DNA from: Verrucomicrobiales bacterium
GTDB lineage: Bacteria > Verrucomicrobiota > Verrucomicrobiia > Limisphaerales > JAFMIX01
Assembly (NCBI GenBank): GCA_017853785.1
Contig: JAFMIX010000003.1
Location: forward strand, 1 to 35,445
Length of the DNA: 35,445 bases
Reading direction: 5' to 3'
Part shown: one piece after another, positions 12,270 through 29,069 of the stretch
How the letters are laid out: the number at the start of each line of letters is the position of its first letter
Numbering within the stretch: the first letter of the stretch is position 1
Translations under genes and position numbers: made by a program
The notes under the pieces: generated by a model
What the model saw: the letters and a program-made list of their open reading frames with translations, nothing else
Database searches by the model: none
What the model was told of the DNA's origin: nothing

Positions 12270-12299
12270 CCAAAGTCCCTTGATGTGAACAAAACGTCA

Positions 12300-12755: not shown

Positions 12756-12758
12756 TTT

Positions 12759-13064: not shown

Positions 13065-13066
13065 TT

Positions 13067-13618
13067 ATGAGCTTGATGCGATTACTGACAGTTGGTCGTT
13101 CACTGAATGAAGTGAAGGGTGCGGGGCGGTATCACATACCCCGCGAAGTCGGGTTGCCGCAGTTCAATTTCGGCAAGTCGGCGGTGAAGTTTTCGAGCCC
13201 GGCGGCAGCGGCGGCGGTCACGGGCGGCGCAACCGGTGAAATTCCGGCCAAGCCGGCAGTCGCCGAGAAAACTCCGGTGGCCCCGGGCGCTCCGATGCCC
13301 AGTGCGGCGAAGAGGCCGACTTCGAGTGGCTGGTTGAAGCGGTCGAATCCCTTCGCCCCGGCGGCGCAGCCTCAGGCTGCAGCGGTGAAGCCGCCGCAGC
13401 AGACGGAACTGACGTTGGATCAGGTGAAGGTGCAGCGCAACGATTTGGCGGAAGCGGATTTTGAGATTGTGCCGAAGCAGGAACTGCCCCGGCAGGCGGA
13501 GTTGAAGCCGTATCGCAAGCCGAACAAGCCGGCGGCGGTGCCGGAAGACGATATGCTGGGCGCGAAGGCTTGGAACTGGCTGGGTTCGCGGCTGTTCGGC
13601 GCGGCGGCGAAGCATTGA
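13067..13618 (+). CDS. Hypothetical protein with Pro/Ala-rich linker and C-terminal amphipathic segment
   Basis: 183-aa ORF filling the gap before rsmH, with GC-rich third codon positions. Alternative start 13061. Confidence 0.8.
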   Translation: MSLMRLLTVGRSLNEVKGAGRYHIPREVGLPQFNFGKSAVKFSSPAAAAAVTGGATGEIPAKPAVAEKTPVAPGAPMPSAAKRPTSSGWLKRSNPFAPAAQPQAAAVKPPQQTELTLDQVKVQRNDLAEADFEIVPKQELPRQAELKPYRKPNKPAAVPEDDMLGAKAWNWLGSRLFGAAAKH

Positions 13619-13631
13619 CCTGGAATTATGC

Positions 13632-14564: not shown

Positions 14565-14565
14565 G

Positions 14566-14958
14566 ATGGCGAAAAACAGAAAAAATCAGTCGGCGGCGGT
14601 CCGGTTCGGTCCGGCGTTGAAGGCCTTTTTGCTGTGCCTGTTCATCGGCGGGTCAGGCGTGGGTTACGTCTGGCAGAAAAATCAGATCTACGAGCTGGGC
14701 AAGCAGATCAAGGCGCGGGAAAACCGGCTGAAGGAATTGCAGGTGCAGAACGAGAAGACGCGGCGGCAGATCGCCATGCTGCACTCGCCGCAGTTCATCG
14801 AACTGCGCATCAAGGAATTGAATCTCGGACTGGTGCAACCCCAGCCGAATCAGATCTGGCGGATGGTCGAGTCGTCAGCGGAGATATCGGGGCTCCCGCG
14901 TCCGCCCGCCGTGCGGCAGCTAGCCGCCCGCCGGAGCACGAATGCAACCATGCCATGA
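14566..14958 (+). CDS. ftsL: Cell division protein FtsL-like
   Basis: Short cytoplasmic N-terminus, one TM, coiled coil, ..ELNLGLVQP; canonical slot between rsmH and ftsI. Confidence 0.75.
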   Translation: MAKNRKNQSAAVRFGPALKAFLLCLFIGGSGVGYVWQKNQIYELGKQIKARENRLKELQVQNEKTRRQIAMLHSPQFIELRIKELNLGLVQPQPNQIWRMVESSAEISGLPRPPAVRQLAARRSTNATMP

Positions 14959-15113
14959 ACTGAAATGATTTTACCGCCGTCCGTGGTGCCGTCGGAGAGG
15001 AACCGATCGCTGCGGACGGTTGGTAGTTTTGCGGTGGGGCACTGAAGACGATTTCGCCGCCGCCCGTGACGCATCGGTTGAGGGCCGATGTTAGCGGGCG
15101 GCTGGTGACTTTT
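14959..15113 (+). repeat. Two diverged tandem copies (about 82-nt period) of a long hairpin, each followed by TTTT
   Basis: Units start with ACTGAA at 14959 and 15041; hairpins at 14972-15025 and 15054-15108; compensatory substitutions between copies. Confidence 0.7.
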
Positions 15114-15118
15114 AGGAC

Positions 15119-16999: not shown

Positions 17000-17727
17000 A
17001 TCCCTCCCGCCCCCAACTTTTCGGAATGCTCGCCGGCCTGTTCCTCGCCGCCGGGCTCGTGTGCTCCGCCATGCTCGCCACCGGCGCGTGGGTGAAGATC
17101 AAGAACTCGCAATTCATCAACGTCAAAGGCTCCGTGCAGAAAAGCATCGAGTCTGACCTCGCCATCTGGTCGGGCAGCTTTCAGACCGAGGCTGAAACCT
17201 TGCTCGCCGCGCAGAAAAAAATCCGGGATGACCGCGCGCTCGTCGAAAAATTTCTCCAGAGCGCGGGCGTGAAGGAATTCGCCTTCCTGCCCATCGGCAT
17301 CGAGGAGCTCAAGGCCACGCAGAAATCTGCCGATGGTTTTGTTTCGCACCGGACCACCGGCTATCGCCTGCGCCAGGGCGTATCGGTGGAGTCCGCGGAC
17401 GTGGACCGGTTGGACCGGCTCGACACCACGCCGCTCGTCGAGCAGGGGGTGCTGTTCACCGTTGCTCCCATTCAATTCATCTACACCCGCGCCGGCGACA
17501 CGAAGGTCGAGATGCTCGCCGCCGCGACCAAGGATGCCCGCACGCGTGCGGAGCAGATTGCACGACAGGGAGGCTGCACCATCGCGCGCTTGCATAGCGC
17601 GGACCAAGGCATCTTCCAGATCACGCCCCGGCACAGCGGCGCGACCAGTTGGCAGGGCGAGAGTGACACTTCTTCGCGCCAGAAAACCATCACCGCCGTC
17701 GTGACCGCCAGCTTTATGCTGAAATAA
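16996..17727 (+). CDS. SIMPL (DUF541) domain periplasmic/membrane protein
   Basis: N-terminal TM, INVKGSVQKSIESDLAIW, KVEMLAAATKDARTRAEQIA, GIFQITP, KTITAVVTASF. TTG start overlaps the ftsI TGA; alternative ATG 17026. Confidence 0.85.
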   Translation: MNPSRPQLFGMLAGLFLAAGLVCSAMLATGAWVKIKNSQFINVKGSVQKSIESDLAIWSGSFQTEAETLLAAQKKIRDDRALVEKFLQSAGVKEFAFLPIGIEELKATQKSADGFVSHRTTGYRLRQGVSVESADVDRLDRLDTTPLVEQGVLFTVAPIQFIYTRAGDTKVEMLAAATKDARTRAEQIARQGGCTIARLHSADQGIFQITPRHSGATSWQGESDTSSRQKTITAVVTASFMLK

Positions 17728-17731
17728 AATT

Positions 17732-19123
17732 GTGGAAGCGCGCTCATTGAAATTTATTGCCGCGGCCTGCGGCGGGGAAATCCTGCGGGGCGCGGTGGGT
17801 GCGATGGTGACGCGCGTGTGCATCGATTCCCGCCGGGCACAGTCCGGTGATTTGTTCTTTGCCATCAAAGGCGACCGCTTCGATGGCCATGACTTTCTCG
17901 AAGAAGTCGCGGCCAAGAACGTGGCGGCCGTCGTCATCGCGCGAAATCGCAAGCCGGCTCAATTGCCTGACTGCGCGGTGATCGTTGTGACCGAGGTGCG
18001 CGCGGCGCTGGGCCAGTTCGCGGCGGCGCATCGGGCGGAACTGGATTTGCCCGTCATCGCCGTCGGCGGTTCGAACGGCAAGACGACGACGAAGGATCTG
18101 ATTGCTGCCGTGCTGCGGCAGAAGTTCACCACGCTCGCGAGTGCGGCGAGCTTCAATAACGACATCGGCGTGCCGCTCACACTGTCGCAGTTGACGCGCG
18201 AACATCACGCCGCCGTGGTGGAAGTCGGCACGAATCATCCCGGCGAACTCGCGCCGCTGGTGCGGATGGCCGCACCGCAGTTCGGCGTCATCACGAACAT
18301 CGGGCGGGAGCATCTGGAATTTTTCGGCGACCTCGCTGGCGTGGCGGCGGAGGAGGGCAAACTCGCCGAGCTGCTGCCTGCGACGGGGAAATTATTTTTG
18401 AACGGCGACGACCCGACGACGGAAGTCATGGGCCTGCGTACTCCGGCTAAAGTTGTACGCGTGGGGCTGGGGCGCAGCTGCCACTGGAACGCGGGCGCGA
18501 TCCGCGGTGATCGCCGCGGCACGACCTTCAACGTCGTCGCGCCGGTGGTGGGGTTGGTCGGCGAGTATCGCATCAATTTGCTGGGGCGGCATCAGGTGGT
18601 GAACGCGCTCTTTGCCATCGCGGTCGGCGCGGAGCTGGGTTTGAGCCGCGAGGAAATCCAGCGTGGCTTGAGCGCGTGTCCGCCGGCGAAGATGCGGCTG
18701 CAACTTTGGGAAGCGAACGGCGTGACGGTGCTGGACGACAGTTACAACTCGAACGCGGATTCCATGGCCGCCGCGCTGCAAGTGCTGGCGGAATTGCCAG
18801 GCGCCGGGCGGCGGATTGCGGTCCTCGGCGACATGGCCGAGCTCGGCGTGCACGCGGAGGCCGCGCATGCGGAAGTCGGGCAGCGCGCTGCGGCGGCGGG
18901 CGTGGGGCAGTTGTTCGCCGTGGGCCAGATGGCGGGTGTGCTGGCGGCGGCGGCGCGGGCGGCGGGCCTGACGCGCATCTTTGAATTTCCGGATGCGGCG
19001 GCGGCGGCCGGCGCGGTGGAAAATTTTGTGAAGCCGGGCGATGTGGTGTTGTTGAAAGCGTCGCGGGCGGTGCGGCTGGAGCAGGTGGCGGAACGGTTGC
19101 AGGCCGAGCCGGCCGGGAAGTGA
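17732..19123 (+). CDS. murF: UDP-N-acetylmuramoyl-tripeptide--D-alanyl-D-alanine ligase
   Basis: IDSR, GDRFDGHDF, GSNGKTTTK, SFNNDIGVPLTL, EVGTNHPGE, DDSYNSN, LGDMAELG, LLKASR. Confidence 0.95.
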   Translation: MEARSLKFIAAACGGEILRGAVGAMVTRVCIDSRRAQSGDLFFAIKGDRFDGHDFLEEVAAKNVAAVVIARNRKPAQLPDCAVIVVTEVRAALGQFAAAHRAELDLPVIAVGGSNGKTTTKDLIAAVLRQKFTTLASAASFNNDIGVPLTLSQLTREHHAAVVEVGTNHPGELAPLVRMAAPQFGVITNIGREHLEFFGDLAGVAAEEGKLAELLPATGKLFLNGDDPTTEVMGLRTPAKVVRVGLGRSCHWNAGAIRGDRRGTTFNVVAPVVGLVGEYRINLLGRHQVVNALFAIAVGAELGLSREEIQRGLSACPPAKMRLQLWEANGVTVLDDSYNSNADSMAAALQVLAELPGAGRRIAVLGDMAELGVHAEAAHAEVGQRAAAAGVGQLFAVGQMAGVLAAAARAAGLTRIFEFPDAAAAAGAVENFVKPGDVVLLKASRAVRLEQVAERLQAEPAGK

Positions 19124-19127
19124 TGCG

Positions 19128-20270
19128 ATGTTATATTATTTGAGCCATTATCTTTTGAACGCGGCCCACGGCACGGAGTGGGCGGCGGCGCTCTCGCCGT
19201 TGCGCGTGTTCAAATACATCACGTTCCGCAGTGCGGGCGCGGCGGTGACGGCGCTGGTGTTGAGCTGGCTGTTCGCGCCGCGGATGATTGCGTGGCTCAA
19301 GCAGATAAAGTTCGGCCAGGAATACGCCGACAAGGCGGAGGGCGCGGGCGTGGCGCACGCGACGGTGAAACGCGGCACGCCGACGATGGGCGGGTTGTTG
19401 ATCGTCTCGACGCTGACGATCTCGACGTTGCTGTGGGCGGACTGGAATCCGCTGGTGGCCTTGACGCTGCTGGCGTTGGTGACGTTCTGCGGGCTGGGCT
19501 TCCACGATGACTACACAAAAATCGCGCAAGGCAATGCCCGTGGTGCCACGTCCGTGGTGAAACTGGTTGTGCAGACGACTTTGGCCTTGGGCATCGGCAT
19601 TTATCTGTGGCTCGTGCCGGCGACGAGCAAGCTGGTTACGGACATCATGGTGCCGTTCTACAAGCATCCCGTGGTGACGGGTGCGGTCGGGCTGGGCCTG
19701 TTGCTGATCGTGCTGACCATCGTGGGCAGTTCCAACGCGGTGAACCTCACGGACGGGCTGGACGGATTGGCGATCGGCTGTACGCTGATCGTTTCGTTCG
19801 CGCTGCTGGTGTTGACGTATCTCGCGGGGAATTTCAAGACGGCGAGCTACCTGCAGATTCCGTTCGTGCCGGGCGCGGACGAATTGACGGTGTTTTGCGC
19901 GGCGCTCATCGGCGCAGGGTTGGGCTTTCTTTGGTATAACTGCCATCCGGCGCAGGTGTTCATGGGTGACACGGGGTCGCTCGCGCTCGGTGGTGCGCTC
20001 GGCGTGATAGCGGTCCTGATCCATCAGCCGTTTGTGTTGTTCATCGCCGGCGGGGTGTTCGTGCTGGAGGCCGCCTCCGTGATGCTGCAGACGGGGTGGT
20101 TCAAATTCACCCGCAAACGCTATGGCATCGGGCGGCGGATTTTTCTGATGGCTCCGCTGCATCATCATTTCCAAAAAAAGAGCTGGCACGAGACGCAGGT
20201 CGTGATCCGGTTTTACATCCTGTGCATTTTGTTCGTAGTGCTCGCGCTGAGCACTCTGAAAATCCGCTGA
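19128..20270 (+). CDS. mraY: Phospho-N-acetylmuramoyl-pentapeptide transferase
   Basis: GTPTMGG, GFHDDY.K, SNAVNLTDGLDGLA, FMGDTGSLALG, MAPLHHHF. Confidence 0.98.
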   Translation: MLYYLSHYLLNAAHGTEWAAALSPLRVFKYITFRSAGAAVTALVLSWLFAPRMIAWLKQIKFGQEYADKAEGAGVAHATVKRGTPTMGGLLIVSTLTISTLLWADWNPLVALTLLALVTFCGLGFHDDYTKIAQGNARGATSVVKLVVQTTLALGIGIYLWLVPATSKLVTDIMVPFYKHPVVTGAVGLGLLLIVLTIVGSSNAVNLTDGLDGLAIGCTLIVSFALLVLTYLAGNFKTASYLQIPFVPGADELTVFCAALIGAGLGFLWYNCHPAQVFMGDTGSLALGGALGVIAVLIHQPFVLFIAGGVFVLEAASVMLQTGWFKFTRKRYGIGRRIFLMAPLHHHFQKKSWHETQVVIRFYILCILFVVLALSTLKIR

Positions 20271-20275
20271 TCGCC

Positions 20276-20617
20276 ATGCCCATTTTACGACCCGACAAAA
20301 ACCTGATGCCCGGTGCGCCCCGCCGCGGGAAATCAGCGTTACCCCGGCGTGCTTTTACTCCTTGCGCCACCCCGGGTTCGTTGCTAAAAACACTGCGAGC
20401 AGCGGCGAAAAATTCAGGCGACAACAGCAAGGCGATTTCACTTTCACCGACTGACTTCGGCTTCGACCAGATACGGAACGGCAACCACCTGGGCGGGGCA
20501 TTTTTACCCGATGACAATTTAGTCCGCCGGGGAATTTTCCGAGGAAAAAATTCCCAGGCGGACTCAGACTCAACACAACCAACAACCACCTCAAAGAAAG
20601 GACGCAATCAGCGTTAA
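20276..20617 (+). pseudogene. Probable degenerate remnant of murD 3' end (113-codon ORF)
   Basis: In the canonical murD slot. FTPC..GSLLKTLRAAAKN...ISLSPTDFGFDQIRNGNHLGGAF resembles the MurD C-terminal VLLSPACASFDQF.NY..RG..F motif. Confidence 0.6.
20521..20564 (+). other. Hairpin upstream of LysM gene
   Basis: AGTCCGCC.GGGAATTTT pairs with AAAATTCCC.GGCGGACT. Confidence 0.55.
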
Positions 20618-20621
20618 GCAA

Positions 20622-21416
20622 ATGAAGCAACCGAATCCGTTCAACTCGCCTCAAACCCCACAGGACCGTCTCAACCAAAGCCGCACCCGCCTGCGCCTCG
20701 CCGTTTTCGGCGCGCTCGCGTTATGCCTGCTGGTGCTCGTGCCGCTGCTCGTTCAGGGATGCAAGCGCGAAGAGCCCCCTGCGCCGCCGGTTGACTCCGG
20801 TTTTCCGCCGCTGGTCACGGACACCAATCTGCCGCCGCTCGATTCGGCACACACCAACGTCACGTTGCCGCCCATCAGCTTCCCGCCGATGACCAACCCG
20901 GCCATTCCGCCCGTCGCACCTATCACCCCCGAAGTCCCGCCTGTGACCCCGGTCGCCGCCGATGGCGAATACACCGTGGCCAAAGGTGATTCCTTCTACA
21001 CCATCGGCCAGAAGCACGGTGTGTCCATCAAGGCCATCAGCGAGGCCAACCCCGGCGTGGATTCCACCAAGCTCAAGATCGGCCAGAAGCTGATCCTCCC
21101 CGCGCCCACCGCCGCCGCCCCGACCGCCACCCCCGGCGCTCCCTTCGCGGATGTCGCCAGCGGTGACAAGACCTACACCGTGAAGTCCGGCGACACGCTC
21201 ACCCGCATCGCCAAGACGCAGGGAGCGACGGTCAAGGCCATCAAGGCCGCGAACAACCTGACCACCGACCGCATCAAGGTCGGCCAGAAGCTGAAGATTC
21301 CCGGCAAGGCTGCGGCTGCCGCGCCCCTCCCTGTGACGGAACCGGCCCCGACCATCGTGCCGCCGCCGGCCCCGGAAACCGCGCCGGCTTTGCCGCCGCT
21401 CGCAGCCCCGAGATGA
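20622..21416 (+). CDS. Membrane-anchored protein with two LysM peptidoglycan-binding domains
   Basis: TM ending in LLVQGC, Pro-rich linker, YTVAKGDSFYTIG...KLKIGQKLILP and YTVKSGDTLTRIA...RIKVGQKLKIP. Confidence 0.93.
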   Translation: MKQPNPFNSPQTPQDRLNQSRTRLRLAVFGALALCLLVLVPLLVQGCKREEPPAPPVDSGFPPLVTDTNLPPLDSAHTNVTLPPISFPPMTNPAIPPVAPITPEVPPVTPVAADGEYTVAKGDSFYTIGQKHGVSIKAISEANPGVDSTKLKIGQKLILPAPTAAAPTATPGAPFADVASGDKTYTVKSGDTLTRIAKTQGATVKAIKAANNLTTDRIKVGQKLKIPGKAAAAAPLPVTEPAPTIVPPPAPETAPALPPLAAPR

Positions 21417-21440
21417 TAGATTAAATAGTAAACATTCCAT

Positions 21441-21473
21441 CCCGGACGCCGGCTCCCCTCCCCGGCGTCCGGG
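21441..21473 (+). other. Perfect 12-bp GC stem-loop between LysM gene and ftsW (no U-tract; possible mRNA stabiliser/processing site)
   Basis: CCCGGACGCCGG (21441-21452) / CCGGCGTCCGGG (21462-21473). Confidence 0.65.
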
Positions 21474-21488
21474 GCAGCGACAGGTCGA

Positions 21489-22640
21489 ATGAAATTGGCC
21501 GTCAATACTTTGGTTTTATGTGTGTGCGCACTCCTTGCCCTGGGGATGGTGATGCTTTACAGTGCGAGCATGGCCGATGAGGTGCGCAACCGGCAGGTGG
21601 GCGCTCACTACCTCATGGCGCAACTCGTCTGGTGCACGCTCGGTTTGGTCGGCGGCTGCGTCGTGGCGCTGCTTGACTACCGCACGCTGAAAAAAATCAC
21701 CCTTCCGCTGCTGCTGCTCGCCCTGTTTCTCCTGCTGCTGGTGCTGATTCCGCACATCGGCCTCAAGGTCAACGGGGCGCGCCGCTGGCTCGGCTTCCAC
21801 AGCATCCGCTTCCAGCCTTCTGAGCTGGCGAAGCTGGCCCTCATCGTCTTCCTCGCGTGGTATGGCGAGCGGTATCAGCGCCAGATGCACACCTGGATGC
21901 AGGGAATTGTCATTCCCGGTGCGTTCATCGGGGCGACGCTCCTGCTAATCTTCGTCGAACCGGACCGCGGTTCCACCATCCTGCTCGCGGCGGTGAGCGC
22001 CGCGATGTTGCTGCTCGCGGGCGTGCGCTGGAAATACTTCGTGCCGCCGGTGCTGGCCGGCGTGGCGGCGCTGGCACTTTCCATCTGGCATGACCCGATG
22101 CGCATGAAGCGCATCTTCAGCTGGCTTGATCTCGAGCAGACCAAGTCCGGCGTCGGCTACCAGGCGTATCAGGCGATGCTCGCGCTGGGGGCGGGCGGTT
22201 GGACCGGTCTCGGGCTTGGCAACGGCCGCCAGAAACTCGGCTTCGTGCCGGAACATCATACGGATTTCATTCTCTCCATCATCGGCGAGGAACTCGGCTT
22301 CGTGGCCACCTTTGCCGTCATCGTCGGCTTCATCCTCATCGTTGTGAGCGGACTTTACATCGCCCGGCACGCGCGCGACACCTTCGGGCTGTTGCTCGGG
22401 GCGGGCCTCACAATCCTCATCGGCCTCCAAGCCTTCATCAACATCGCCGTGGTCACCAGCGTCTTTCCGAACAAAGGGCTGCCCCTGCCGTTCATCAGTT
22501 ACGGCGGCTCGAATCTCCTGATGATGCTCGTGTGCGTCGGCTGCTTGCTGAGCATTGCCCGGCAGGCGCGCGAACCGGCGGCTGTGCCGGACCGCGCGGT
22601 TGAAACCGACGAATTCCCCGGCCTCCAAACGGCGCCATGA
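21489..22640 (+). CDS. ftsW: SEDS peptidoglycan polymerase FtsW
   Basis: NGARRW, FQPSELAK, EPD.G, GYQ, PEHHTDFI, EELGF, KGLPLPFISYGGS. Confidence 0.96.
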   Translation: MKLAVNTLVLCVCALLALGMVMLYSASMADEVRNRQVGAHYLMAQLVWCTLGLVGGCVVALLDYRTLKKITLPLLLLALFLLLLVLIPHIGLKVNGARRWLGFHSIRFQPSELAKLALIVFLAWYGERYQRQMHTWMQGIVIPGAFIGATLLLIFVEPDRGSTILLAAVSAAMLLLAGVRWKYFVPPVLAGVAALALSIWHDPMRMKRIFSWLDLEQTKSGVGYQAYQAMLALGAGGWTGLGLGNGRQKLGFVPEHHTDFILSIIGEELGFVATFAVIVGFILIVVSGLYIARHARDTFGLLLGAGLTILIGLQAFINIAVVTSVFPNKGLPLPFISYGGSNLLMMLVCVGCLLSIARQAREPAAVPDRAVETDEFPGLQTAP

Positions 22641-23758
22641 AATCGCCCGCCGCCACCAGCCCCCGCATCGCCATCGCCTGTGGCGGCACCGGCGGCCACC
22701 TCTTCCCCGGCATCGCCATCGGGGCGGAACTGCTCCAGCGCGGTGGCGCGGTCACGTTGCTCATCTCCCCCAAGGACGTGGATCAGCAGGCCGTGCGCAG
22801 CGTTGGCGGCATGGAAGTCGTCACGCTGCCGGCGGTGGCGTTGCAGGACGGCAATTATTTTTCGTTCGCCCGCAGTTTCTGGCAGGCGCGGGGCGCGGCC
22901 CTGAAACATTTCGCCGCCCAGCCGCCGCAGGCCGTGCTCGCGATGGGCGGCTTCACCGCCGCGCCGCCGGTGTTCGCCGCGAAAAAGTTCCGCGCCAAAA
23001 CCTTCCTCCACGAGTCCAACACCATCCCCGGTCGCGCCAACCGCTTCCTCGCCCGCCGTGTGGATGCGGCCTTCGTCGGTTTCCCCGAGGCCGCCCACCA
23101 GTTGCGCGCCCGCGACATCATGGTCGTCGGCACGCCCGTGCGGCCGCAGTTCGCACCGTCGCCGTTTCCGGAAATGCCGACCTCGATCTACCGCACGTCG
23201 CTCGGGCTCGATCCGGCCCGGCCCGTGGTGTTCGTCACCGGCGGCAGCCAGGGCGCGACCGGCTTGAACGATCTCATCCTCGCCGCGCTGCCCGCGCTGG
23301 CCGACCGGGCGGACGTCTGGCAATGGCTGCATCTCACCGGTCCGCGCGATGTCGAGCGGGTCAAAGCCGCCTACGCCGCGCACGGTTGCAAGGCGGTGGT
23401 GCAACCGTTCCTCGTGGAGATGGAAGCCGCTTTCCACGCCGCCACCGCCGTTGTCAGCCGCGCGGGGGCCTCGTCGCTCGCGGAGATCGCGGCGATGAAA
23501 CTTCCCGCGTTGCTTGTGCCACTGCCGACGGCGGCGGACGACCACCAACGCCACAACGCCCGGGCGTTCGCGACTGCGGGCGCGGCGCGCGTGTTGGAGC
23601 AGGCGGCCGCCACGCCGGAAAAGACCGCCGCGCTGCTGCGCGAGTTGATGGAAGCCCCGGCAGCGCGGACGGAAATACAAGTGGCACTGGCGAAACAGCA
23701 CACGCCGACAGCGGCGGCCCGGATCGCGGAAAACATCTTAAACGCTTTGAAGTCTTGA
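22637..23758 (+). CDS. murG: Undecaprenyldiphospho-muramoylpentapeptide beta-N-acetylglucosaminyltransferase
   Basis: GGTGGHLFPG, HESNTIPGRAN, GGSQGA, SRAGASSLAE, HQRHNA. Confidence 0.97.
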   Translation: MKSPAATSPRIAIACGGTGGHLFPGIAIGAELLQRGGAVTLLISPKDVDQQAVRSVGGMEVVTLPAVALQDGNYFSFARSFWQARGAALKHFAAQPPQAVLAMGGFTAAPPVFAAKKFRAKTFLHESNTIPGRANRFLARRVDAAFVGFPEAAHQLRARDIMVVGTPVRPQFAPSPFPEMPTSIYRTSLGLDPARPVVFVTGGSQGATGLNDLILAALPALADRADVWQWLHLTGPRDVERVKAAYAAHGCKAVVQPFLVEMEAAFHAATAVVSRAGASSLAEIAAMKLPALLVPLPTAADDHQRHNARAFATAGAARVLEQAAATPEKTAALLRELMEAPAARTEIQVALAKQHTPTAAARIAENILNALKS

Positions 23759-23760
23759 GT

Positions 23761-24687
23761 ATGAACGCCACCTTGCAATCCTCTGACCTTGCTGCGGAAC
23801 TCGCGGCGCGCGTCACGGCAGCGACGGTCATCCGGCGCGACGAGCCGTTGGCCAAGCGCACGACGATGCGCGTAGGCGGGCCGGCGCATATCCTGGTCGA
23901 GCCGGCTTCAGACGAAGACCTGGCGGCGGTGGTGCGGTTCTGCGGCGAGCAGCGGCAGGAATTTTTCGTGCTGGGCCGCGGTTCGAATCTGCTCGTGCGC
24001 GACGGCGGTTTTCGCGGTGTGGTGATTTCGCTGGCGGCGGCGCATTTCAGCAGGGTGACGGTGGATGGGGAGCGCTTGCGTTGCGGCGCGGGGGCGAAGT
24101 TGAAGGAAGTGGCGGCTGCGGCGAAACGCGCGAGCCTCGGCGGATTGGAATTTCTGGAAGGCATTCCCGGCAGTGTCGGCGGCGCGTTGCGGATGAACGC
24201 GGGCGCGATGGGCGGGGCGACGTTTGATTTTGTGGAGTCGGTGCGCGTCATGGATCGGAGCGGGCTGATCGGCGAACTTTCCCGGCGCGCCATCGCGGTG
24301 GAGTATCGCTCGTGCCGTTTGTTCCAGACGCATCTGGCGCTGGGTTGTGTATTCCACGGCGTGCCCGCGCCGCGCGAGGCGATCGAAGCGAAGCTGAACG
24401 AATTCAACCGCAAGCGCTGGGAAGCGCAGCCGGCCAAGCCGAGCGCGGGTTGCACTTTCAAGAACCCCGCGACGATTCCGGCAGGCAAGCTGGTGGACGA
24501 ACTCGGGCTGAAAGGCGCGCACGTCGGTGGCGCGCGGGTCTCGCAGGAACACGGCAATTTCATCGTGAACGACGGTCGGGCGACTGCGGCGGACGTGTTG
24601 CGGTTGATCGAGGTCATCCGGCAGCACGCGCGGGCGGAACGAGGAATCGAACTGGAGACGGAGGTGGAGATCATCGGTGAAGACTAA
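23761..24687 (+). CDS. murB: UDP-N-acetylmuramate dehydrogenase
   Basis: TTMRVGGPA, GRGSNLL, GIPGSVGGALRMNAGA, SAGCTFKNP, HGNFIVN, LETEV. ATG 2 nt after the murG stop. Confidence 0.96.
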   Translation: MNATLQSSDLAAELAARVTAATVIRRDEPLAKRTTMRVGGPAHILVEPASDEDLAAVVRFCGEQRQEFFVLGRGSNLLVRDGGFRGVVISLAAAHFSRVTVDGERLRCGAGAKLKEVAAAAKRASLGGLEFLEGIPGSVGGALRMNAGAMGGATFDFVESVRVMDRSGLIGELSRRAIAVEYRSCRLFQTHLALGCVFHGVPAPREAIEAKLNEFNRKRWEAQPAKPSAGCTFKNPATIPAGKLVDELGLKGAHVGGARVSQEHGNFIVNDGRATAADVLRLIEVIRQHARAERGIELETEVEIIGED

Positions 24688-24712
24688 ACCATCCAAAAGA
24701 AAGGCGACCGAA

Positions 24713-25615
24713 ATGAAAATCACTGTGATGTTGGGCGGGCCGAGTGCGGAGCGGGAAGTGTCCTTGCGTTCCGGAGCGGCGGTGGCGGACGCGTTGGTTT
24801 CGCGCGGTTATGATGTCGAGGAACTGGATCCGGCCGGGGACGACTGGACGTTACCGCCGGACACCGATGTGGTGTTCCTCGCGCTGCACGGCACCTATGG
24901 CGAGGACGGCACCGTGCAGCGGGCGTTGGATGAGCAGGGCGTGCCTTACACCGGCTGCGGTGCGGAGGCAAGCCGCATCGGGTTCGACAAGATTTTGAGC
25001 AAGCGCGCGTTTCTTACGGCGGGCGTGCCGACGGCGAAGTTCGCGGTGATCAATTCGGTGGCCGCGCCGTGGCCGGCGGGCTGGGAATTGCCGGTGGTGC
25101 TGAAGCCGGCGTGCCAGGGTTCGAGCGTGGGGCTGCATTTCGTGGAGTGCGCGCAGGAATGGCGTGGCGCCTTGGCGGAAAGTTTCCGCTATGGTTCGCC
25201 CGTTTTGCTCGAAGAAAAAATTTGCGGACGGGAGACGACTGTTGGCATCCTTGACGGCGTGGCGCTGCCCGTGGTCGAGATCCGGCCCCGGAGCGGCGCT
25301 TATGATTATCGGTCCAAATACACCACCGGCGCGTCGGAATATTTTTGCCCGGCGGATTTCGATGCGGCGACGACGCAGCGGATCCAGGCGGCCGCGCTCG
25401 CGGCGTTTCACGCCATCGGCGGGCGGGATTATAGCCGGGTGGACGTGATGGTGACGCCGGCTGGCGAGCCGGTCGTGTTGGAGGTGAATACTCTGCCGGG
25501 CATGACGGCGACGAGCCTGTTGCCTAAAGCGGCCGCGGCGGCGGGGCTGAAATTTCCGCTGCTGTGCGAGCGCATGGTGGAACTGGCATTGCAGCGCGCA
25601 CCGGTGGCGGCGTGA
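24713..25615 (+). CDS. ddl: D-alanine--D-alanine ligase
   Basis: GGPSAEREVSL, LHGTYGEDG, GSSVG, YDYRSKY, EVNTLPG. Alternative GTG start 24677. Confidence 0.96.
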   Translation: MKITVMLGGPSAEREVSLRSGAAVADALVSRGYDVEELDPAGDDWTLPPDTDVVFLALHGTYGEDGTVQRALDEQGVPYTGCGAEASRIGFDKILSKRAFLTAGVPTAKFAVINSVAAPWPAGWELPVVLKPACQGSSVGLHFVECAQEWRGALAESFRYGSPVLLEEKICGRETTVGILDGVALPVVEIRPRSGAYDYRSKYTTGASEYFCPADFDAATTQRIQAAALAAFHAIGGRDYSRVDVMVTPAGEPVVLEVNTLPGMTATSLLPKAAAAAGLKFPLLCERMVELALQRAPVAA

Positions 25616-25627: not shown

Positions 25628-26593
25628 ATGGCTTGGTTCAAACGAAAATATCAAAATCGGCGTCTGGATCGGCGCCGTGTCTTGTTGGACGTCAAACTGC
25701 GCGCCGACCAGGTGCGCGCCACCCGGATGCGCTGGGGCGCGATCGCGGTGACGGTCTCGGCGGGGACGATCTTCGGGCTGTATCTCGTCTGGCGCACGGG
25801 CGAATGGGCGGTGAATCATTTCCTGTATCAGAACAAGGATTTCGCCGTGCAGCAGATCGAGGTGCAGACCGACGGTGTGGTGGCGGTGGAACAATTGCGG
25901 CGCTGGGCCGGCGTGAAGGCGGGCGACAACCTGCTCGCGCTCGATCTCAGCCGCGTGAAGCGGGATCTTGAACTCGTGCCGCAGGTGAAGACCGCCGCCA
26001 TCGAGCGCGTGTTGCCCCGCACGTTGCGCATTCGGGTAACGGAACGCCAACCGCTCGCGCAGGCTTATGCGCCGCAGCCCCGGCCTGACGGGCGCGGCTA
26101 TGACATGAAGGTTTTCCAGGTGGACAACGAAGGCGCGGTGATGGCGCCGCTCGGGTTGCGGCAGCGGGCGACGCCGCTGGCGCAGGCGGGCGAGCAGTTG
26201 CCGACGCTCGCGGGGATCGACCCGATCAATCTGGCGAACGGCAAGAAGCTGGAGTCGCCACAGGTGCGGGCGGGGCTGGATTTGATCGTGGCGTTCGAGC
26301 GCTCGCCGATGGTGGGCTTGGCGGACTTGGCACGCATCGATATTTCTTCGCCGGGCGTGCTCATCGCGACAACGGGGCAGGGCAGCGAAGTCACTTTTGC
26401 GTTGACCGATTTTGAGCGGCAGTTGAAACGCTGGCGGCTGGTCCATGACCGGTGTCTGGCGGAGGGCAAAGGCATCGCCGCGCTCGATCTGGCCGTGCCC
26501 AGCAACATCCCGGCCCGCACCGTGGATGCCCGCGCCGTCGTCCCCATCGCGCCCAAAGCCAAACCCGCAACCTCCAGGAAACGCAATGTTTAA
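25628..26593 (+). CDS. ftsQ: Cell division protein FtsQ/DivIB
   Basis: Basic cytoplasmic N-terminus, TM, POTRA-like FAVQQIEV...NLLALDL...PQVKTAAIERVLPRTLRIRVTERQP; slot between ddl and ftsA. Confidence 0.88.
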   Translation: MAWFKRKYQNRRLDRRRVLLDVKLRADQVRATRMRWGAIAVTVSAGTIFGLYLVWRTGEWAVNHFLYQNKDFAVQQIEVQTDGVVAVEQLRRWAGVKAGDNLLALDLSRVKRDLELVPQVKTAAIERVLPRTLRIRVTERQPLAQAYAPQPRPDGRGYDMKVFQVDNEGAVMAPLGLRQRATPLAQAGEQLPTLAGIDPINLANGKKLESPQVRAGLDLIVAFERSPMVGLADLARIDISSPGVLIATTGQGSEVTFALTDFERQLKRWRLVHDRCLAEGKGIAALDLAVPSNIPARTVDARAVVPIAPKAKPATSRKRNV

Positions 26594-27815
26594 CCAACCT
26601 TCCGTCATCGTCGGTCTCGAGATCGGCACCTCGAAAGTCTGCGCGGTCGTCGGCGAACGCAACGCCGAGGGCGCGCTGAACATCATCGGCGTCGGTCAGG
26701 CGAAGTCCCGCGGCGTCCGCAAGGGCGAGATCACCGATGCCACCGCCGTGGAAGAAGATGTGCGCAACGCCATCGTCGAGGCCGAGCAGATGGCCAATGT
26801 CGAGATCCGGAGCGTGTATCTCGGCGTCAGCGGCGCGCACATCCGCGGCTTCAGCAACCGTGGCGTCCATCCGGTGGTTTCCGCGGACCGCGAGATCACC
26901 GCCGAGGACGTGCAGGACGTGGTGAAGAACGCGAAGGCGGTGAACGTGCCGCAGGAGAACCACATTCTGCACGCCATCCGCCAGCACTTTCTCGTGGACG
27001 GACAGGATCGCATCATCAATCCCGTCGGCATGCTGGGGGCGCGGCTTGAGGTGGATGTCCACGTCATTCATGGAAATTTCAACCGGCTCCAGAACGCAAT
27101 CCGCATCGTCAAAGGAATGCAGTTGGAGGTGGAGGACGTGGTGTTCAACGGGCTTGCAGCGTCGCTCGCCCTGCTGACCAAGGAGCAGAAAGAACTTGGC
27201 TCGCTCGTGATCGACCTGGGCGGCGGCACGACGGATTACGCGGTTTCGGCCGGGGGCATCATCCAGCACACCGGCGTGCTTGCGGTGGGCGGCGATCACG
27301 TCACGAACGACCTCGCCATCGGCTTGAAGATTGCGCTGGGTCGCGCGGAAGGTTTGAAGCTGGAGCACGGCGCGGCGTTGCCCGATGCGGCGGCGCGGGG
27401 CCAGACCATCACGATTCCCGGCGAGGTGGGCTTGCCGGCAAAGACGCTGAACCTCGATCACCTGCGGCGCATAATGCACCTGCGGCTCGAGGAGATATTT
27501 AATTTGATCGGTCAGGATTTGGAGCGGGCGGATATGCTCGGTCATCTGCGCGGCGGCATTTTTCTCTGCGGCGGCGGCGCGCACATTCCGGGGATTGCCA
27601 AACTGGCGCAGGATATTTTCGGACTGCACGTTTCCGTGGGCAAGACTAACACCATCAGCAGCCTTAAGTCCGCGCTGGACCAGCCGGAGTTTGCGGCTCC
27701 GATCGGGCTGGTGAAATTCGGCTCGTTGCGCGCGCGGCAGCGGCCCAAGCCGAGTTTGCTGCCGTTTGAATTGGGCAAGACGTTCGATCGCCTCTTCAGC
27801 CGCATCGGTGCTTAA
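26586..27815 (+). CDS. ftsA: Cell division protein FtsA
   Basis: GLEIGTSKV, GVRKGEI, DLGGGTTD, GGDHVTNDL, CGGGA, C-terminal amphipathic FDRLFSRI. Confidence 0.96.
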   Translation: MFNQPSVIVGLEIGTSKVCAVVGERNAEGALNIIGVGQAKSRGVRKGEITDATAVEEDVRNAIVEAEQMANVEIRSVYLGVSGAHIRGFSNRGVHPVVSADREITAEDVQDVVKNAKAVNVPQENHILHAIRQHFLVDGQDRIINPVGMLGARLEVDVHVIHGNFNRLQNAIRIVKGMQLEVEDVVFNGLAASLALLTKEQKELGSLVIDLGGGTTDYAVSAGGIIQHTGVLAVGGDHVTNDLAIGLKIALGRAEGLKLEHGAALPDAAARGQTITIPGEVGLPAKTLNLDHLRRIMHLRLEEIFNLIGQDLERADMLGHLRGGIFLCGGGAHIPGIAKLAQDIFGLHVSVGKTNTISSLKSALDQPEFAAPIGLVKFGSLRARQRPKPSLLPFELGKTFDRLFSRIGA

Positions 27816-27827: not shown

Positions 27828-29069
27828 ATGAGCACGCCAAATGAAACTTCCGCCCGCAACATCAATATCATCGGCGTCGGCGGCGCCGGCCAGAATCTGG
27901 TGGCGCAACTTGTGGCGCTGGCGCTGCCCGGGCTGCGCTGCGCGGTGCTGAACACCGCCGCGCCGACAGGGCCGATGGAATTTATTCCGCTCGCCGCCAA
28001 ACCGGTGCGCGATCTGGAAGTGGCGGACGGCGCGCAGGTGGATGCCGCGCTGGCCCCAGCCCAGCCGCAGTTGCAGGCGTGGCTCGCGGGGGCGGACGTG
28101 GTGTTTATCGTCGCGGGTTTGGGCGGCAAGACCGGCAGCGCGTTCGCGCCGGCGGTGGCGCGGTTGGCGAAGGCGACAGGCGCGTTGACGTTGGGTTTTG
28201 TGACGACGCCGTTCGCGTGCGAGGCGAGCCGACGGGCGCGGCAGGCGGAACAGGGCTTGGTGCGGTTGCGGGCCGAGGCGGATGGCGTGATCGCGCTGCC
28301 GAACGAAAAAATCGTGCGGCTGATCGACGAGAACACCAGCCTGCTCGACACGTTCAAGATTTCCAACGAACTGCTCACCGCCGGTCTGGCCGGGGTGTGG
28401 CGGTTGCTGCATTGCCCCGGGCTAATCCCGATCCATTTTGACGATCTGCGCGAGCTGATCCGCAGCGGCAAGGCGGAGAATGTCTTCGCTACCGCCGAGG
28501 CCGCCGGACCGAACCGTGGCCGGGAAGTGGTGGAGCAATTGGTGGCGCATCCGCTGCTCGATGGCGGGCGCGCGCTCGGCGCGGCGCCGGCGGCGTTGGT
28601 GAGCATCGTGGGCGGGCCGGGACTTTCGCTGGCGGAAGTGAATCGCGTGATGGAACAGCTCAACCGCCAGTGCGAAGGCGCGCAGGTGCTGATGGGTGCG
28701 GCGATCGACGAGACTTTCAAGGACCGCCTCGCGGTGACGATGATTGTGGCGCGCGGGGAAGTCGCCAAGCCCGTTGCCCCGGTCGGGGAATTGGACACGC
28801 AATTCCTCCACGCCGCGGAGCCGGTGCGGCCGCCCTCGCGGTTCGTGCCGCCGCCGCCGGCATTGTCGCCGGAAAAAATCGAGCAACTGGCCGCGCGACG
28901 GATGACCGGCGGCGGGCGCACGCGCAAAAGCGGACCGAAGATGACGCAGGAGCAGTTGCCGCTGGAGATCGTTTCCAAAGGGCGCTTCGACAAGAGCGAG
29001 CCGACGGTGCGAAACGGAGAAGACCTCGATCAGCCGACTTTCATCCGGCGCGGGATGGTGCTGAACTGA
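27828..29069 (+). CDS. ftsZ: FtsZ/tubulin family protein with degenerate GTP-binding motifs
   Basis: After ftsA. IGVGGAG.N, ADVVFIVAGLGGKTGS, PF.CE..RR, PN, PGLI..FDD, GAAIDE, C-terminal DLDQPTFIRR. Confidence 0.88.
   Translation: MSTPNETSARNINIIGVGGAGQNLVAQLVALALPGLRCAVLNTAAPTGPMEFIPLAAKPVRDLEVADGAQVDAALAPAQPQLQAWLAGADVVFIVAGLGGKTGSAFAPAVARLAKATGALTLGFVTTPFACEASRRARQAEQGLVRLRAEADGVIALPNEKIVRLIDENTSLLDTFKISNELLTAGLAGVWRLLHCPGLIPIHFDDLRELIRSGKAENVFATAEAAGPNRGREVVEQLVAHPLLDGGRALGAAPAALVSIVGGPGLSLAEVNRVMEQLNRQCEGAQVLMGAAIDETFKDRLAVTMIVARGEVAKPVAPVGELDTQFLHAAEPVRPPSRFVPPPPALSPEKIEQLAARRMTGGGRTRKSGPKMTQEQLPLEIVSKGRFDKSEPTVRNGEDLDQPTFIRRGMVLN

What the first reader, a model, noticed from the sequence alone, without database searches (positions are those of the whole stretch)
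27828..29069. FtsZ with an eroded GTP-binding/GTPase site but conserved partner-binding tail
Seen vs established FtsZ motifs: NTD becomes NTA; the T3 loop (GLGAG.NP) is replaced by VRDLEVADG and the region is about 5 aa shorter; the tubulin signature GGGTGTG becomes GGKTGSA; PF.FEG becomes PFACEA; T7 NVDFAD becomes PIHFDD. The ORF is full length, and the C-terminal domain and DLDQPTFIRR peptide are kept, as is FtsA. Established: Planctomycetes and Chlamydiae in the same superphylum lack FtsZ. Inference: a pseudo-GTPase, non-treadmilling FtsZ. Together with the murC/D/E loss, this may be an intermediate towards a remodelled or FtsZ-independent division system.
Basis: partly seen in the sequence, partly recalled or inferred. 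Interest (0 to 1): 0.75.

Follow-up and report, generated by a model that had tools for sequence, protein, structure and literature searches.

The report
Sole FtsZ with eroded GTP-sensing loops
This freshwater verrucomicrobial bacterium keeps a single, still-selected copy of the cell-division protein FtsZ whose GTP-sensing and GTP-splitting loops have been lost or rewritten while its partner-binding tail is intact, so it may be a natural case of division with a slow or non-hydrolysing FtsZ.

Summary
Window 27828-29069 (+) encodes a 413-aa FtsZ at the end of a dcw cluster, straight after ftsQ-ftsA. Against solved FtsZs it shows NTD>NTA, no T3 GxGxG loop (region 5 aa shorter), GGGTGTG>GGKTGSA, FEG>CEA and NxDFAD>PIHFDD. 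It is the only tubulin/FtsZ gene found in this 84%-complete MAG and in 4 of 4 congeners. The changes are fixed: 17 database clusters carry an invariant T4 Lys and all lack T3. The gene is under purifying selection, but unevenly: dN/dS is 0.63 for residues 1-85, 0.09 for the C-domain and 0.18 for the tail.

Three caveats. T1, T5, T6 and the H7 Phe stay invariant, so nucleotide binding may survive. A sub-threshold FtsZ score is normal for Verrucomicrobiota (141 of 151 genomes). The link to murC/D/E loss disappears once phylogeny is considered; that loss is real, and Mpl is kept.

Best reading (about 0.5): an FtsA-tethered scaffold that has lost gamma-phosphate sensing and most GTPase activity. 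It is one stage of a graded erosion series in Limisphaerales. No structure model could be obtained. I rate it a new variant of a known kind, of moderate to high interest.

The parts
27828..29069 (+). ftsZ, 413 aa plus stop. It is the only FtsZ/tubulin-family gene found in the genome.
27873..27896 (+). T1 loop G16-N23 (GVGGAGQN). It is retained; GVGGAG.N is also the form in canonical FtsZs of the same order.
27951..27959 (+). T2 N42-T43-A44. The Asp of NTD is replaced (A here; E in the three other congeners readable at T2).
28008..28034 (+). Former T3 loop R61-A69 (RDLEVADGA). The GxGxGG core is gone. The stretch varies in sequence and length within the clade.
28116..28142 (+). T4 / tubulin signature G97-A105 (GLGGKTGSA). 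K101 replaces the third Gly and is invariant in 17 of 17 GGK-type database sequences.
28209..28235 (+). T5 P128-R136 (PFACEASRR). P, F, E and RR are retained; the Gly after Glu is Ala.
28296..28310 (+). T6 L157-K161 (LPNEK). The Asn is retained.
28425..28448 (+). T7 loop I200-L207 (IPIHFDDL). In place of NxDxxD it reads P/E, H and an acidic last position. The I.IHF.D form is shared with several sister lineages.
28443..28760 (+). C-terminal (FtsZ_C) domain, residues about 206-311. It is the most constrained globular part (dN/dS 0.09).
28947..29066 (+). Extended tail Q374-N413 (QEQLPLEIVSKGRFDKSEPT...EDLDQPTFIRRGMVLN). It is a two-part motif conserved across Verrucomicrobiota and ends in the FtsA-binding-type peptide.
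26586..27815 (+). ftsA, with the likely start at MFNQPS. The longest ORF runs from 26445.
25628..26593 (+). ftsQ (POTRA_1).
12066..25615 (+). The rest of the dcw cluster, in this order: mraZ, rsmH, ftsL, ftsI, SIMPL/DUF541, murF, mraY, LysM protein, ftsW, murG, murB, ddl. murE, murD and murC are missing from their usual places.

Best explanation
This is the orthologous and only ftsZ of an uncultured freshwater/estuarine Limisphaerales bacterium (Verrucomicrobiota). It is still needed. The C-terminal domain and an extended FtsA-binding tail are under strong purifying selection, so the protein most likely still sits under the membrane on FtsA and organises the FtsW/FtsI septal machinery. Its nucleotide site has lost the parts that sense the gamma-phosphate and Mg (the T2 Asp and the whole T3 loop) and two of the three T7 residues that activate hydrolysis in the neighbouring subunit. 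It has also gained a fixed Lys in the T4 glycine loop. I infer that it may still hold a guanine nucleotide, because T1, T5, T6 and the H7 Phe are kept, but hydrolyses GTP very slowly or not at all. That would make it a largely static or otherwise-regulated scaffold, not a treadmilling GTPase.

Shown: identity, single copy, fixation, and the domain pattern of constraint.
Inferred: loss of GTPase activity and treadmilling, and the scaffold role.
For: Identity and context:
- Pfam Tubulin plus FtsZ_C. PDB FtsZ hits to E 1e-48 over residues 9-311.
- Gene order ftsQ-ftsA-ftsZ at the end of the dcw cluster. ftsA lies next to ftsZ in 38 of 39 order loci; the missing one ends at a contig edge.

Single copy:
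- 1 PF00091 hit and 1 TIGR00065 hit in G000.
- 1 PF00091 hit in each of G001-G004.

Fixation:
- GGK plus T3 loss in the genus and in 17 of the 120 best database hits. K is invariant in 17 of 17.

Selection, G000 vs G001 with dS about 0.5:
- Whole gene 0.245; residues 1-85 0.63; 86-205 0.29; C-domain 0.09; linker 0.16; tail 0.18.
- Sliding dN is 0.22-0.27 for residues 1-80, against 0.03-0.05 for 221-300 and 361-413.
- ftsZ has the highest dN/dS of six dcw genes for this pair (0.25 vs 0.11-0.20).

Identity to a canonical FtsZ of the same order (L003):
- FtsA identity in the genus (0.66-0.73) is close to that of canonical-FtsZ genomes.
- FtsZ N-domain identity drops to 0.51-0.58 (canonical 0.66-0.72).
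- C-domain identity does not drop (0.57-0.61).

Relaxation rather than one adaptive change:
- Sister lineages of the same clade carry different hits in the same loops: GGGAGTG, GGGSGTG, GGVVGTI, GGVTGTG, a T3 deletion in G038, and T7 variants.

Population level:
- A contig from another study differs at 5 sites in ftsZ, of which 3 are synonymous and 2 conservative.
Against: - No GTP-binding, GTPase or polymerisation measurement exists, and no structure model could be made. Structure prediction was never accepted.
- Residues for the base, ribose and alpha/beta-phosphate contacts stay invariant in the clade: the T1 Gly's, the T4 Gly's and Thr/Ser, the T5 Glu and Arg-Arg, the T6 Asn and the H7 Phe. 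The last T7 acidic position is kept (D206). The invariant Lys could compensate rather than block.
- His at the second T7 position also occurs in G008, whose FtsZ is otherwise canonical (314.7 bits), so it may be compatible with activity.
- A non-canonical T7 was found in 20 of 20 sampled verrucomicrobial FtsZs outside the order. This is a phylum in which V. spinosum divides by binary fission with an essential ftsZ (PMC12283558, passages read). I could not tell which sampled genome, if any, is that species.
- NG86 dN/dS with GC3 of 0.83 is rough, and only one pair is unsaturated.
- All five genomes of the genus are MAGs (73-94% complete).
Confidence: 0.5

Rival explanations
1. Remodelled but working GTPase. 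The fixed T4 Lys takes over phosphate or charge handling from the lost T3 loop and Mg site, and His203 plus Asp205/Asp206 replace the canonical T7 residues. The protein would still bind and hydrolyse GTP and treadmill, perhaps more slowly.
For: - K101 is invariant in 17 of 17 sequences, and T1, T5, T6 and the H7 Phe are invariant.
- The last T7 position is always acidic in this clade.
- The I.IHF.D form of T7 is shared with the otherwise canonical FtsZ of G008.
- Residues 86-205 still show dN/dS of 0.29.
- An earlier scan note on Opitutales FtsZ reached a 'rewritten then fixed' reading (e1-2587636; not tested here).
Against: - The former T3 stretch is not conserved in sequence or length within the clade. 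P0008 and P0011 carry further deletions there.
- Residues 1-85 evolve at dN/dS of 0.63. This looks like lost constraint, not a new site.
- Sister lineages have different non-Gly residues at the Lys position (V, E, Q).
Confidence: 0.3
2. A gene on its way out. Division is already driven by other systems (FtsA, MreB, septal peptidoglycan synthases). On this reading FtsZ is a dispensable remnant or has moved to a different, non-division role.
For: - There is a graded series in the order, down to FtsZs of 87.3 and 34.6 bits (G037, G013).
- Two genomes have no hit (G021 at 83% and G032 at 87% complete).
- ftsZ has the highest dN/dS of the six dcw genes compared.
- MreB is present in one copy.
- FtsZ is absent from Planctomycetota and Chlamydiota (PMC5147048, PMC12283558, passages read).
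Against: - The ORF is intact in all genomes examined.
- dN/dS is 0.09 in the C-domain and 0.05-0.18 in the tail.
- The tail motif is conserved even in the most eroded FtsZs.
- The gene keeps its dcw position next to ftsA.
Confidence: 0.12
3. Assembly or sampling artefact. A canonical ftsZ or btubAB exists but was missed because the genome is an incomplete MAG, so this copy is a redundant paralogue.
For: G000 is 84% complete and lies in 347 contigs.
Against: - Five independent MAGs of the genus (73-94% complete) each give exactly one FtsZ/tubulin hit, the dcw one.
- The gene sits in the orthologous ftsQAZ position.
- On the tree it nests inside the order's FtsZs.
Confidence: 0.05

Closest known systems
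Canonical bacterial FtsZ (NCBIfam TIGR00065; e.g. B. subtilis 2vam, S. aureus, M. tuberculosis structures)
   Same: - Two-domain fold signature (PF00091 + PF12327), aligned over residues 9-311 at E 1e-48.
- C-terminal peptide.
- ftsQ-ftsA-ftsZ gene order.
- T1, T5, T6 and the H7 Phe are retained.
   Different: - Score below the equivalog cut-off (187.2 vs 295.2).
- No T3 GxGxG loop, with the region 5 aa shorter.
- T2 Asp lost.
- Lys in the tubulin signature.
- T7 reads PIHFDD instead of NxDFAD.
- The N-terminal 85 residues are nearly unconstrained.
Verrucomicrobial FtsZ in general. It is described as 'the most divergent' bacterial FtsZ group in PMC9871819. V. spinosum FtsZ carries GGGTGSG (PMC1845146) and is essential (PMC12283558).
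   Same: - Sub-threshold similarity to the FtsZ model is typical of the phylum: 141 of 151 genomes fall below the cut-off.
- The extended two-part tail ...GRF.K..PT...G.DLD.PTY.RR... is shared.
- T7 is commonly non-canonical.
   Different: - Most sampled verrucomicrobial FtsZs keep the T3 GxGxG core: 26 of 39 in the order and 14 of 20 elsewhere.
- V. spinosum keeps the tubulin signature.
- The GGK clade lacks both T3 and the signature and has the fixed Lys.
Laboratory GTPase-deficient FtsZ mutants (E. coli T4-loop and T7-loop mutants; recalled from memory, not checked here), and work on how far treadmilling is needed (PMC8079713, PMC10994846; titles and abstract starts seen)
   Same: The changes hit the same loops (T4, T7). 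Such mutants, and drug-arrested FtsZ, show that constriction can proceed with little treadmilling once the ring is condensed. A natural low-GTPase FtsZ is therefore plausible.
   Different: Here the changes are natural, multiple, fixed across a clade, and include loss of the whole T3 loop. Nothing has been measured.
FtsZ-less division of Planctomycetota and Chlamydiota (PMC5147048, PMC12283558)
   Same: Same superphylum. The dcw cluster is degraded here too (murC/D/E are missing), and MreB is present.
   Different: ftsZ, ftsA, ftsQ, ftsL, ftsW and ftsI are all still present and conserved here.
Other degenerate dcw-resident FtsZs noted earlier in this scan (Auribacterota e1-1247124; gut Opitutales e1-2587636)
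   Same: An intact, selected FtsZ with degenerate GTPase motifs and a conserved tail.
   Different: They come from other lineages and affect other loops. The Opitutales case keeps the tubulin signature. These are unchecked AI notes and serve as leads only.

Membership tests
FtsZ (bacterial cell-division tubulin homologue) | Tubulin/FtsZ GTPase-domain fold signature (Pfam PF00091 over its gathering score) | tested here: met
   75.5 bits vs 33, but only profile positions 96-189 are matched.
FtsZ (bacterial cell-division tubulin homologue) | FtsZ C-terminal domain (PF12327) | tested here: met
   60 bits vs 27.
FtsZ (bacterial cell-division tubulin homologue) | NCBIfam equivalog TIGR00065 over its curated cut-off | tested here: not met
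   187.2 vs 295.2 bits. The same failure occurs in 141 of 151 Verrucomicrobiota genomes and in 31 of 41 genomes of the order, 2 of which have no hit at all.
FtsZ (bacterial cell-division tubulin homologue) | Tubulin signature [SAG]GGTG[SAT]G in T4 (PROSITE pattern as quoted in PMC1845146) | tested here: not met
   The motif reads GGKTGSA: Lys at the third position and Ala at the last.
FtsZ (bacterial cell-division tubulin homologue) | T3 loop GxGxG (gamma-phosphate contact; role recalled) | tested here: not met
   RDLEVADGA stands in place of RGLGxGGDP. There is no GxG anywhere in residues 45-90.
FtsZ (bacterial cell-division tubulin homologue) | T7 synergy loop NxDxxD (catalytic role recalled) | tested here: not met
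   The loop reads P-I-H-F-D-D; only the last acidic position is kept.
FtsZ (bacterial cell-division tubulin homologue) | Conserved C-terminal peptide of the FtsA/ZipA-binding type | tested here: met
   EDLDQPTFIRRG, within a tail motif conserved phylum-wide. Binding itself was not tested.
FtsZ (bacterial cell-division tubulin homologue) | Orthologous position at the end of the dcw cluster after ftsQ-ftsA | tested here: met
FtsZ (bacterial cell-division tubulin homologue) | GTP binding, GTP hydrolysis, head-to-tail polymerisation | not testable with these tools
   No structure model could be obtained. See Tried and rejected for the homodimer job.
Pseudo-GTPase (a GTPase-fold protein that no longer binds or no longer hydrolyses nucleotide) | Loss of catalytic or gamma-phosphate-sensing residues, fixed in a lineage | tested here: met
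   The T2 Asp, T3, and two of three T7 positions are lost in the genus and in 17 of 17 GGK-type sequences.
Pseudo-GTPase (a GTPase-fold protein that no longer binds or no longer hydrolyses nucleotide) | Demonstrated absence of hydrolysis and/or binding | not testable with these tools
   This needs biochemistry. Retained T1/T5/T6/H7 residues argue that binding may persist.

The most novel reading that the evidence does not exclude
A free-living, widespread aquatic bacterium divides with a hydrolysis-dead, non-treadmilling FtsZ kept only as an FtsA-bound scaffold. In addition, Limisphaerales preserve a living stepwise series: canonical FtsZ, then T4/T7 hits, then T3 loss plus a fixed Lys, then barely recognisable FtsZ at 35-87 bits, all with the tail and ftsA intact. 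That series would replay the route by which other PVC phyla came to divide without FtsZ. In one clade it runs alongside loss of de novo peptidoglycan stem-peptide synthesis, with Mpl salvage kept.
Probability: 0.3. Interest if true: 0.8.

Novelty: new variant of a known kind. Interest (0 to 1): 0.6.

Why it matters
FtsZ's GTPase-driven treadmilling is held to be central to bacterial cytokinesis. How much of it is truly required is argued from mutants and drugs in a few model species. A natural, selected, single-copy FtsZ that lacks the T3 loop and the tubulin signature would be a direct test case, and it comes with close relatives that still have a canonical FtsZ for comparison.

It also bears on an open PVC question: how FtsZ-based fission was abandoned. 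Recent literature treats Verrucomicrobiota as canonical for both FtsZ and the dcw genes (PMC12283558). The data here show that a large order departs from that picture on both counts.

Tried and rejected
There is therefore no pocket model and no fold search.
- Homodimer job (residues 1-315, two copies, alignment A1): 'no answer', score 0.00 against a mark of 0.42. This is not evidence either way.
- Link between murE loss and FtsZ erosion: the raw medians differ (286.1 bits in 19 murE-holding genomes vs 204.8 in 20 murE-lacking ones; Mann-Whitney p 0.005). On the FtsA tree only 3 independent pairs lie on well-supported branches, and the sign test gives p about 1. Counter-examples run both ways: G008, G034 and G039 against G017, G035, G037 and G040. 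I do not claim co-evolution.
- Expression: two metatranscriptome libraries hold short identical contigs, one in ftsA (26853-27083) and one spanning the ftsA end plus 9 bases of ftsZ (27640-27836). These are too short to count, and DNA carry-over is not excluded. Nothing can be said about the uncovered rest of ftsZ.
- A specific Lys-Asp salt bridge filling the phosphate site: rejected as a firm claim, because the acidic ex-T3 residues are not conserved and the segment is deleted in P0008 and P0011.
- Walker-A-like reading of GGKT: the upstream position is V, I or L in the sequences, not the required G or A, so I dropped it.
- ZapA, MinC_C and SepF: not found in G000. The genome is 84% complete and these models ring in only 4, 6 and 7 of 14 control genomes respectively, so this says little.
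- Literature searches that found nothing on this variant: 'FtsZ' + 'pseudo-GTPase' (0 papers); 'FtsZ' + 'Pedosphaera' (5 papers, none on the topic by title or abstract); 'Limisphaerales' + 'peptidoglycan' (4 papers); 'FtsZ' + 'tubulin signature' + 'Verrucomicrobia' + 'GTPase' (1 review).
- Earlier scan notes by place and by sequence: nothing.
Full report
THE OBSERVATION

Window 27828-29069 (+) is an uninterrupted 413-aa ORF. Pfam recognises a Tubulin/FtsZ GTPase domain (75.5 bits, but only profile positions 96-189) and FtsZ_C (60 bits). The NCBIfam equivalog ftsZ model gives 187.2 bits, below its cut-off of 295.2. Forty-nine distinct solved FtsZ sequences match, the best being B. subtilis 2vam at E 1e-48 over query residues 9-311.
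- NTD>NTA (N42-A44).
- RGLGAGANP>RDLEVADGA (R61-A69), with five gap positions between T2 and T4.
- GGGTGTG>GGKTGSA (K101).
- PFTFEG>PFACEA.
- NLDFAD>PIHFDD (P201-D206).

T1 (GVGGAGQN), the T5 Glu and Arg-Arg, the T6 Asn (N159) and the H7 Phe (F176) are kept. The tail ends in EDLDQPTFIRRGMVLN.

CONTEXT

The gene closes a dcw cluster with this order: mraZ, rsmH, ftsL, ftsI, a SIMPL/DUF541 gene, murF, mraY, a LysM protein, ftsW, murG, murB, ddl, ftsQ, ftsA, ftsZ.

The window is contig C321 of a MAG of 2.38 Mb in 347 contigs, 84% complete. Record titles of the nearest public relatives name Verrucomicrobiales, Limisphaerales and Verrucomicrobiota MAGs. One database relative is named 'Limisphaerales bacterium'. 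I therefore call the order Limisphaerales. This name comes from those titles, not from a taxonomy of the window itself.

Near-identical DNA (half or more of the sampled words) is held by 18 runs; the 20 holding runs together come from 13 studies of freshwater, estuary and sediment metagenomes. Three of those runs may be the source.

COPY NUMBER

PF00091 and TIGR00065 each find one place in G000. PF00091 finds exactly one place in each of the four other genomes of the genus, which are 73-94% complete. The double TIGR00065 rows for G003 and G004 are two pieces of the same gene. No second ftsZ and no btubAB were found. MreB is present once.

FIXATION

All genus members share T3 loss, GGK(T/A)G(S/T) and I.IHF(D/E)(D/E). 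G003 is unreadable at T1-T3 because of masked bases.

In the large protein collection, 2970 of the 8000 scored candidates had E <= 1e-60. Of the 120 best listed:
- 17 carry GGK[TAIS]G, and all 17 lack the T3 GxGxG.
- 99 carry GLGGGAGTG with T3 intact.
- The remaining four are one GLGGGTG, one GLGGGAA, one regex mis-hit and one fragment.

Within the 17 GGK sequences:
- The Lys is invariant.
- So are the T1 G..AG, T5 PF..E..RR, the T6 Asn and the H7 Phe.
- The former T3 stretch varies in sequence and length.
- The middle T7 position is mostly His (Gln in 2 sequences, Asn in 1).

SELECTION

I computed Nei-Gojobori values for the only unsaturated pair, G000 vs G001 (dS about 0.5):

| Region | dN/dS |
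|---|---|
| Whole gene | 0.245 |
| Residues 1-85 | 0.63 |
| Residues 86-205 | 0.29 |
| C-domain | 0.09 |
| Linker | 0.16 |
| Tail | 0.18 |

In sliding windows, dN is 0.22-0.27 over residues 1-80 and 0.03-0.05 over residues 221-300 and 361-413.

For the same pair the other dcw genes give murG 0.20, murB 0.13, ddl 0.12, ftsQ 0.11 and ftsA 0.15. FtsZ, at 0.25, is the least constrained of the six.

Measured against a canonical FtsZ genome of the order (L003), one search shows:
- FtsA identity in the genus is 0.66-0.73, close to the 0.69-0.77 of most genomes scoring >= 294 bits.
- FtsZ N-domain identity falls to 0.51-0.58 (those genomes mostly 0.66-0.72).
- C-domain identity does not fall (0.57-0.61).

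A contig from another study differs from the window at five ftsZ sites, three synonymous and two conservative (A223G, D245E). It differs at none of the ftsA sites; the six ftsA differences seen in a further run are all synonymous.

So the gene is maintained, but constraint has moved away from the nucleotide-binding half. These dN/dS values are rough: GC3 is 0.83 and the method is simple.

WIDER PICTURE

In 41 genomes of the order (37 families), the FtsZ model score runs without a break from 329 to 35 bits. Ten are over the cut-off, 29 are under it, and 2 have no hit (83% and 87% complete).

In 151 genomes of the phylum, all but the window's own at least 90% complete, all have an FtsZ hit but only 10 reach the cut-off. 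The window's 187 bits is therefore ordinary for the phylum. This agrees with published remarks that verrucomicrobial FtsZ is the most divergent bacterial group (PMC9871819, passages read).

Motif counts in the alignment of 59 sequences are below. The one unreadable row is counted as failing.

| Feature | Order (of 39) | Rest of phylum (of 20) |
|---|---|---|
| T2 | 25 | 20 |
| T3 core | 26 | 14 |
| PROSITE-type T4 | 15 | 4 |
| NxDxxD T7 | 11 | 0 |
| All four | 9 | 0 |

What sets the window's genus apart is the combined loss of T3 and the T4 signature, with a fixed Lys. In the order, T3 and T4 both fail in 12 rows: the 5 of the genus, plus G038, G028, G024, G020, G025, G037 and G013.

The tail ...LPLE(I/V)(V/I)SKGRF(D/E)KSEPT...GEDLD.PT(Y/F)IRRG..LN is conserved across the order, and in looser form across the phylum. 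It is present even in the most eroded proteins.

A SERIES, NOT A SINGLE EVENT

On the FtsZ tree (quick IQ-TREE, SH-aLRT supports) the nesting is as follows:
- The genus (99) groups with G038 and G028 (82).
- That group lies inside a 9-row clade (96) with G015, G030 and G020.
- That clade lies inside a 12-row clade (98) with G008, G033 and G035.
- The 12-row clade sits next to the fully canonical G022.

Along this nesting the states change stepwise:
- G022: fully canonical.
- G008: GGGTATG plus IHFAD.
- G015 and G030: GGGAGTG or GGGSGTG with odd T7 loops.
- G038 and G028: GGV plus T3 deletion or decay.
- The genus: GGK plus T3 loss plus T2 loss.

Different residues hit the same loops in sister lineages. 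This looks like relaxed constraint on GTP hydrolysis in the clade, followed by fixation of Lys in one branch. The FtsA tree recovers an 8-row clade (88) holding the genus with G038, G015, G014 and G030. Several deep forks are poorly supported, and FtsZ's own erosion may distort its tree.

THE MUR GENES

In G000 the only Mur-ligase-type genes are murF (window), an Mpl-type ligase on C6 (459.7 bits vs a cut-off of 388.7; murC model 308.6, below its 335.1 cut-off), and folC. G001-G004 show the same reduced set: murF plus an Mpl-like gene, with a weak folC-range hit in two of them; I assign these by score, as they were not checked against the named models. A control genome with canonical FtsZ (G022) has six.

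Across the 41 genomes, murD is over its cut-off in 22, murE in 19 and murC in 12. An Mpl-like gene is present in nearly all. So the murC/D/E loss is real and widespread in the order.

Its tie to FtsZ erosion is not shown. The medians are 286.1 vs 204.8 bits (p 0.005 uncorrected), but there is no signal in independent pairs (3 pairs on supported branches, p about 1), and there are counter-examples both ways.

MECHANISM

Shown:
- An orthologous, single-copy, selected FtsZ.
- A strongly constrained C-domain and FtsA-type tail.
- A weakly constrained N-terminal part that has lost the T2 Asp, T3 and two of three T7 positions and gained an invariant T4 Lys.

From established FtsZ structure-function knowledge (recalled, not tested here): T3 and T2 face the gamma-phosphate and Mg, T7 of the next subunit activates hydrolysis, and T1/T4 backbone amides, T5, T6 and H7 hold the phosphates, ribose and base.

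Inference: nucleotide binding may persist, while hydrolysis and the GTP/GDP switch that drives treadmilling are strongly impaired. The protein would then act mainly as an FtsA-tethered scaffold for FtsW/FtsI. I put this at about 0.5. The rivals are a remodelled but working GTPase (0.3), a gene on its way out (0.12), and a missed second copy (0.05).

Work in model species indicates that treadmilling matters most for ring condensation and the start of constriction, and is dispensable later in some species (PMC8079713 and PMC10994846; titles and abstract starts seen). This makes a low-GTPase FtsZ viable in principle.

NOVELTY

Papers read in passages:
- PMC1845146: V. spinosum FtsZ is 'canonical' with GGGTGSG.
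- PMC5147048 and PMC12283558: Verrucomicrobiota encode all dcw genes and divide canonically.
- PMC9871819: verrucomicrobial FtsZ is the most divergent group.

None of these mentions loss of T3, a Lys in the signature, or mur loss in Limisphaerales. Four targeted searches found nothing. Subscription journals and supplements were not searched, so earlier notice cannot be excluded. In particular, the 2007-2008 papers on verrucomicrobial dcw genes, which I recall but did not see, could bear on this. Earlier notes of this scan describe comparable degenerate FtsZs in Auribacterota and gut Opitutales (unchecked leads).

Verdict: a new variant of a known kind, interest about 0.6.

LIMITS

- No structure model or fold search was possible.
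- The homodimer job gave no answer.
- All genomes are MAGs.
- dN/dS rests on one unsaturated pair.
- E. coli-style roles of residues are recalled, not tested.

Noticed in passing
window 12066-25615; G000:C6:4760-6085 (locus L048 988-2421, minus strand): murC, murD and murE are missing from the dcw cluster and from the whole 84%-complete genome. An Mpl-type ligase (UDP-MurNAc:tripeptide ligase; 459.7 bits vs a cut-off of 388.7) is present, together with murF, mraY, murG, murB and ddl. The four congeners show the same set. Across 41 genomes of the order, murE is over its cut-off in 19, murD in 22 and murC in 12, while Mpl-like genes are almost universal. This suggests the peptidoglycan stem peptide is obtained by salvage, not made de novo. 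I found no paper on it.
   Followed up: partly
window 16957-17724 and 20523-21413: A SIMPL/DUF541 gene sits where murE usually lies (between ftsI and murF). A gene with two LysM domains, with weak DipM/NlpD-like hits, sits where murD usually lies (between mraY and ftsW).
   Followed up: no
window 28947-29066; the tails of loci L003-L040 and L050-L069: Verrucomicrobial FtsZs share an extended two-part C-terminal motif...LPLEIVSKGRF(D/E)KSEPT...GEDLD.PTYIRRG..LN. It is far longer than the usual C-terminal peptide and is conserved even where the GTPase domain is almost unrecognisable. The upstream GRF.K..PT part may be a second partner-binding site.
   Followed up: partly
L040 (G013:C16), L039 (G037:C13), L060 (G119:C31): These FtsZs are much more eroded: 34.6, 87.3 and 40.4 bits on TIGR00065. 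T1-T7 are largely unrecognisable, yet the ORFs are intact, G013 and G037 keep ftsA alongside (not examined for G119), and the tail motif is kept.
   Followed up: partly
proteins P0019-P0120; L022 (G015): The abundant sister group (99 of the 120 best hits) has GLGGGAGTG, that is Ala in place of the signature Thr. T3 is intact and T7 is VRVAD-like. It is a large environmental clade with a different hit in the same site.
   Followed up: no
G021 and G032 (same order): No FtsZ match at E <= 0.001 in these two genomes (83% and 87% complete). This could be incompleteness or true loss.
   Followed up: no
window 12983-13615 and 31245-32819: Two ORFs with high GC3 have no Pfam or NCBIfam family. One lies between mraZ and rsmH. 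The other is a 524-aa protein downstream of a pseudouridine synthase gene.
   Followed up: no
window 27816-27827: ftsZ starts 12 bases after the ftsA stop, and the spacer (cccc acaaaacc) has no recognisable Shine-Dalgarno sequence.
   Followed up: no
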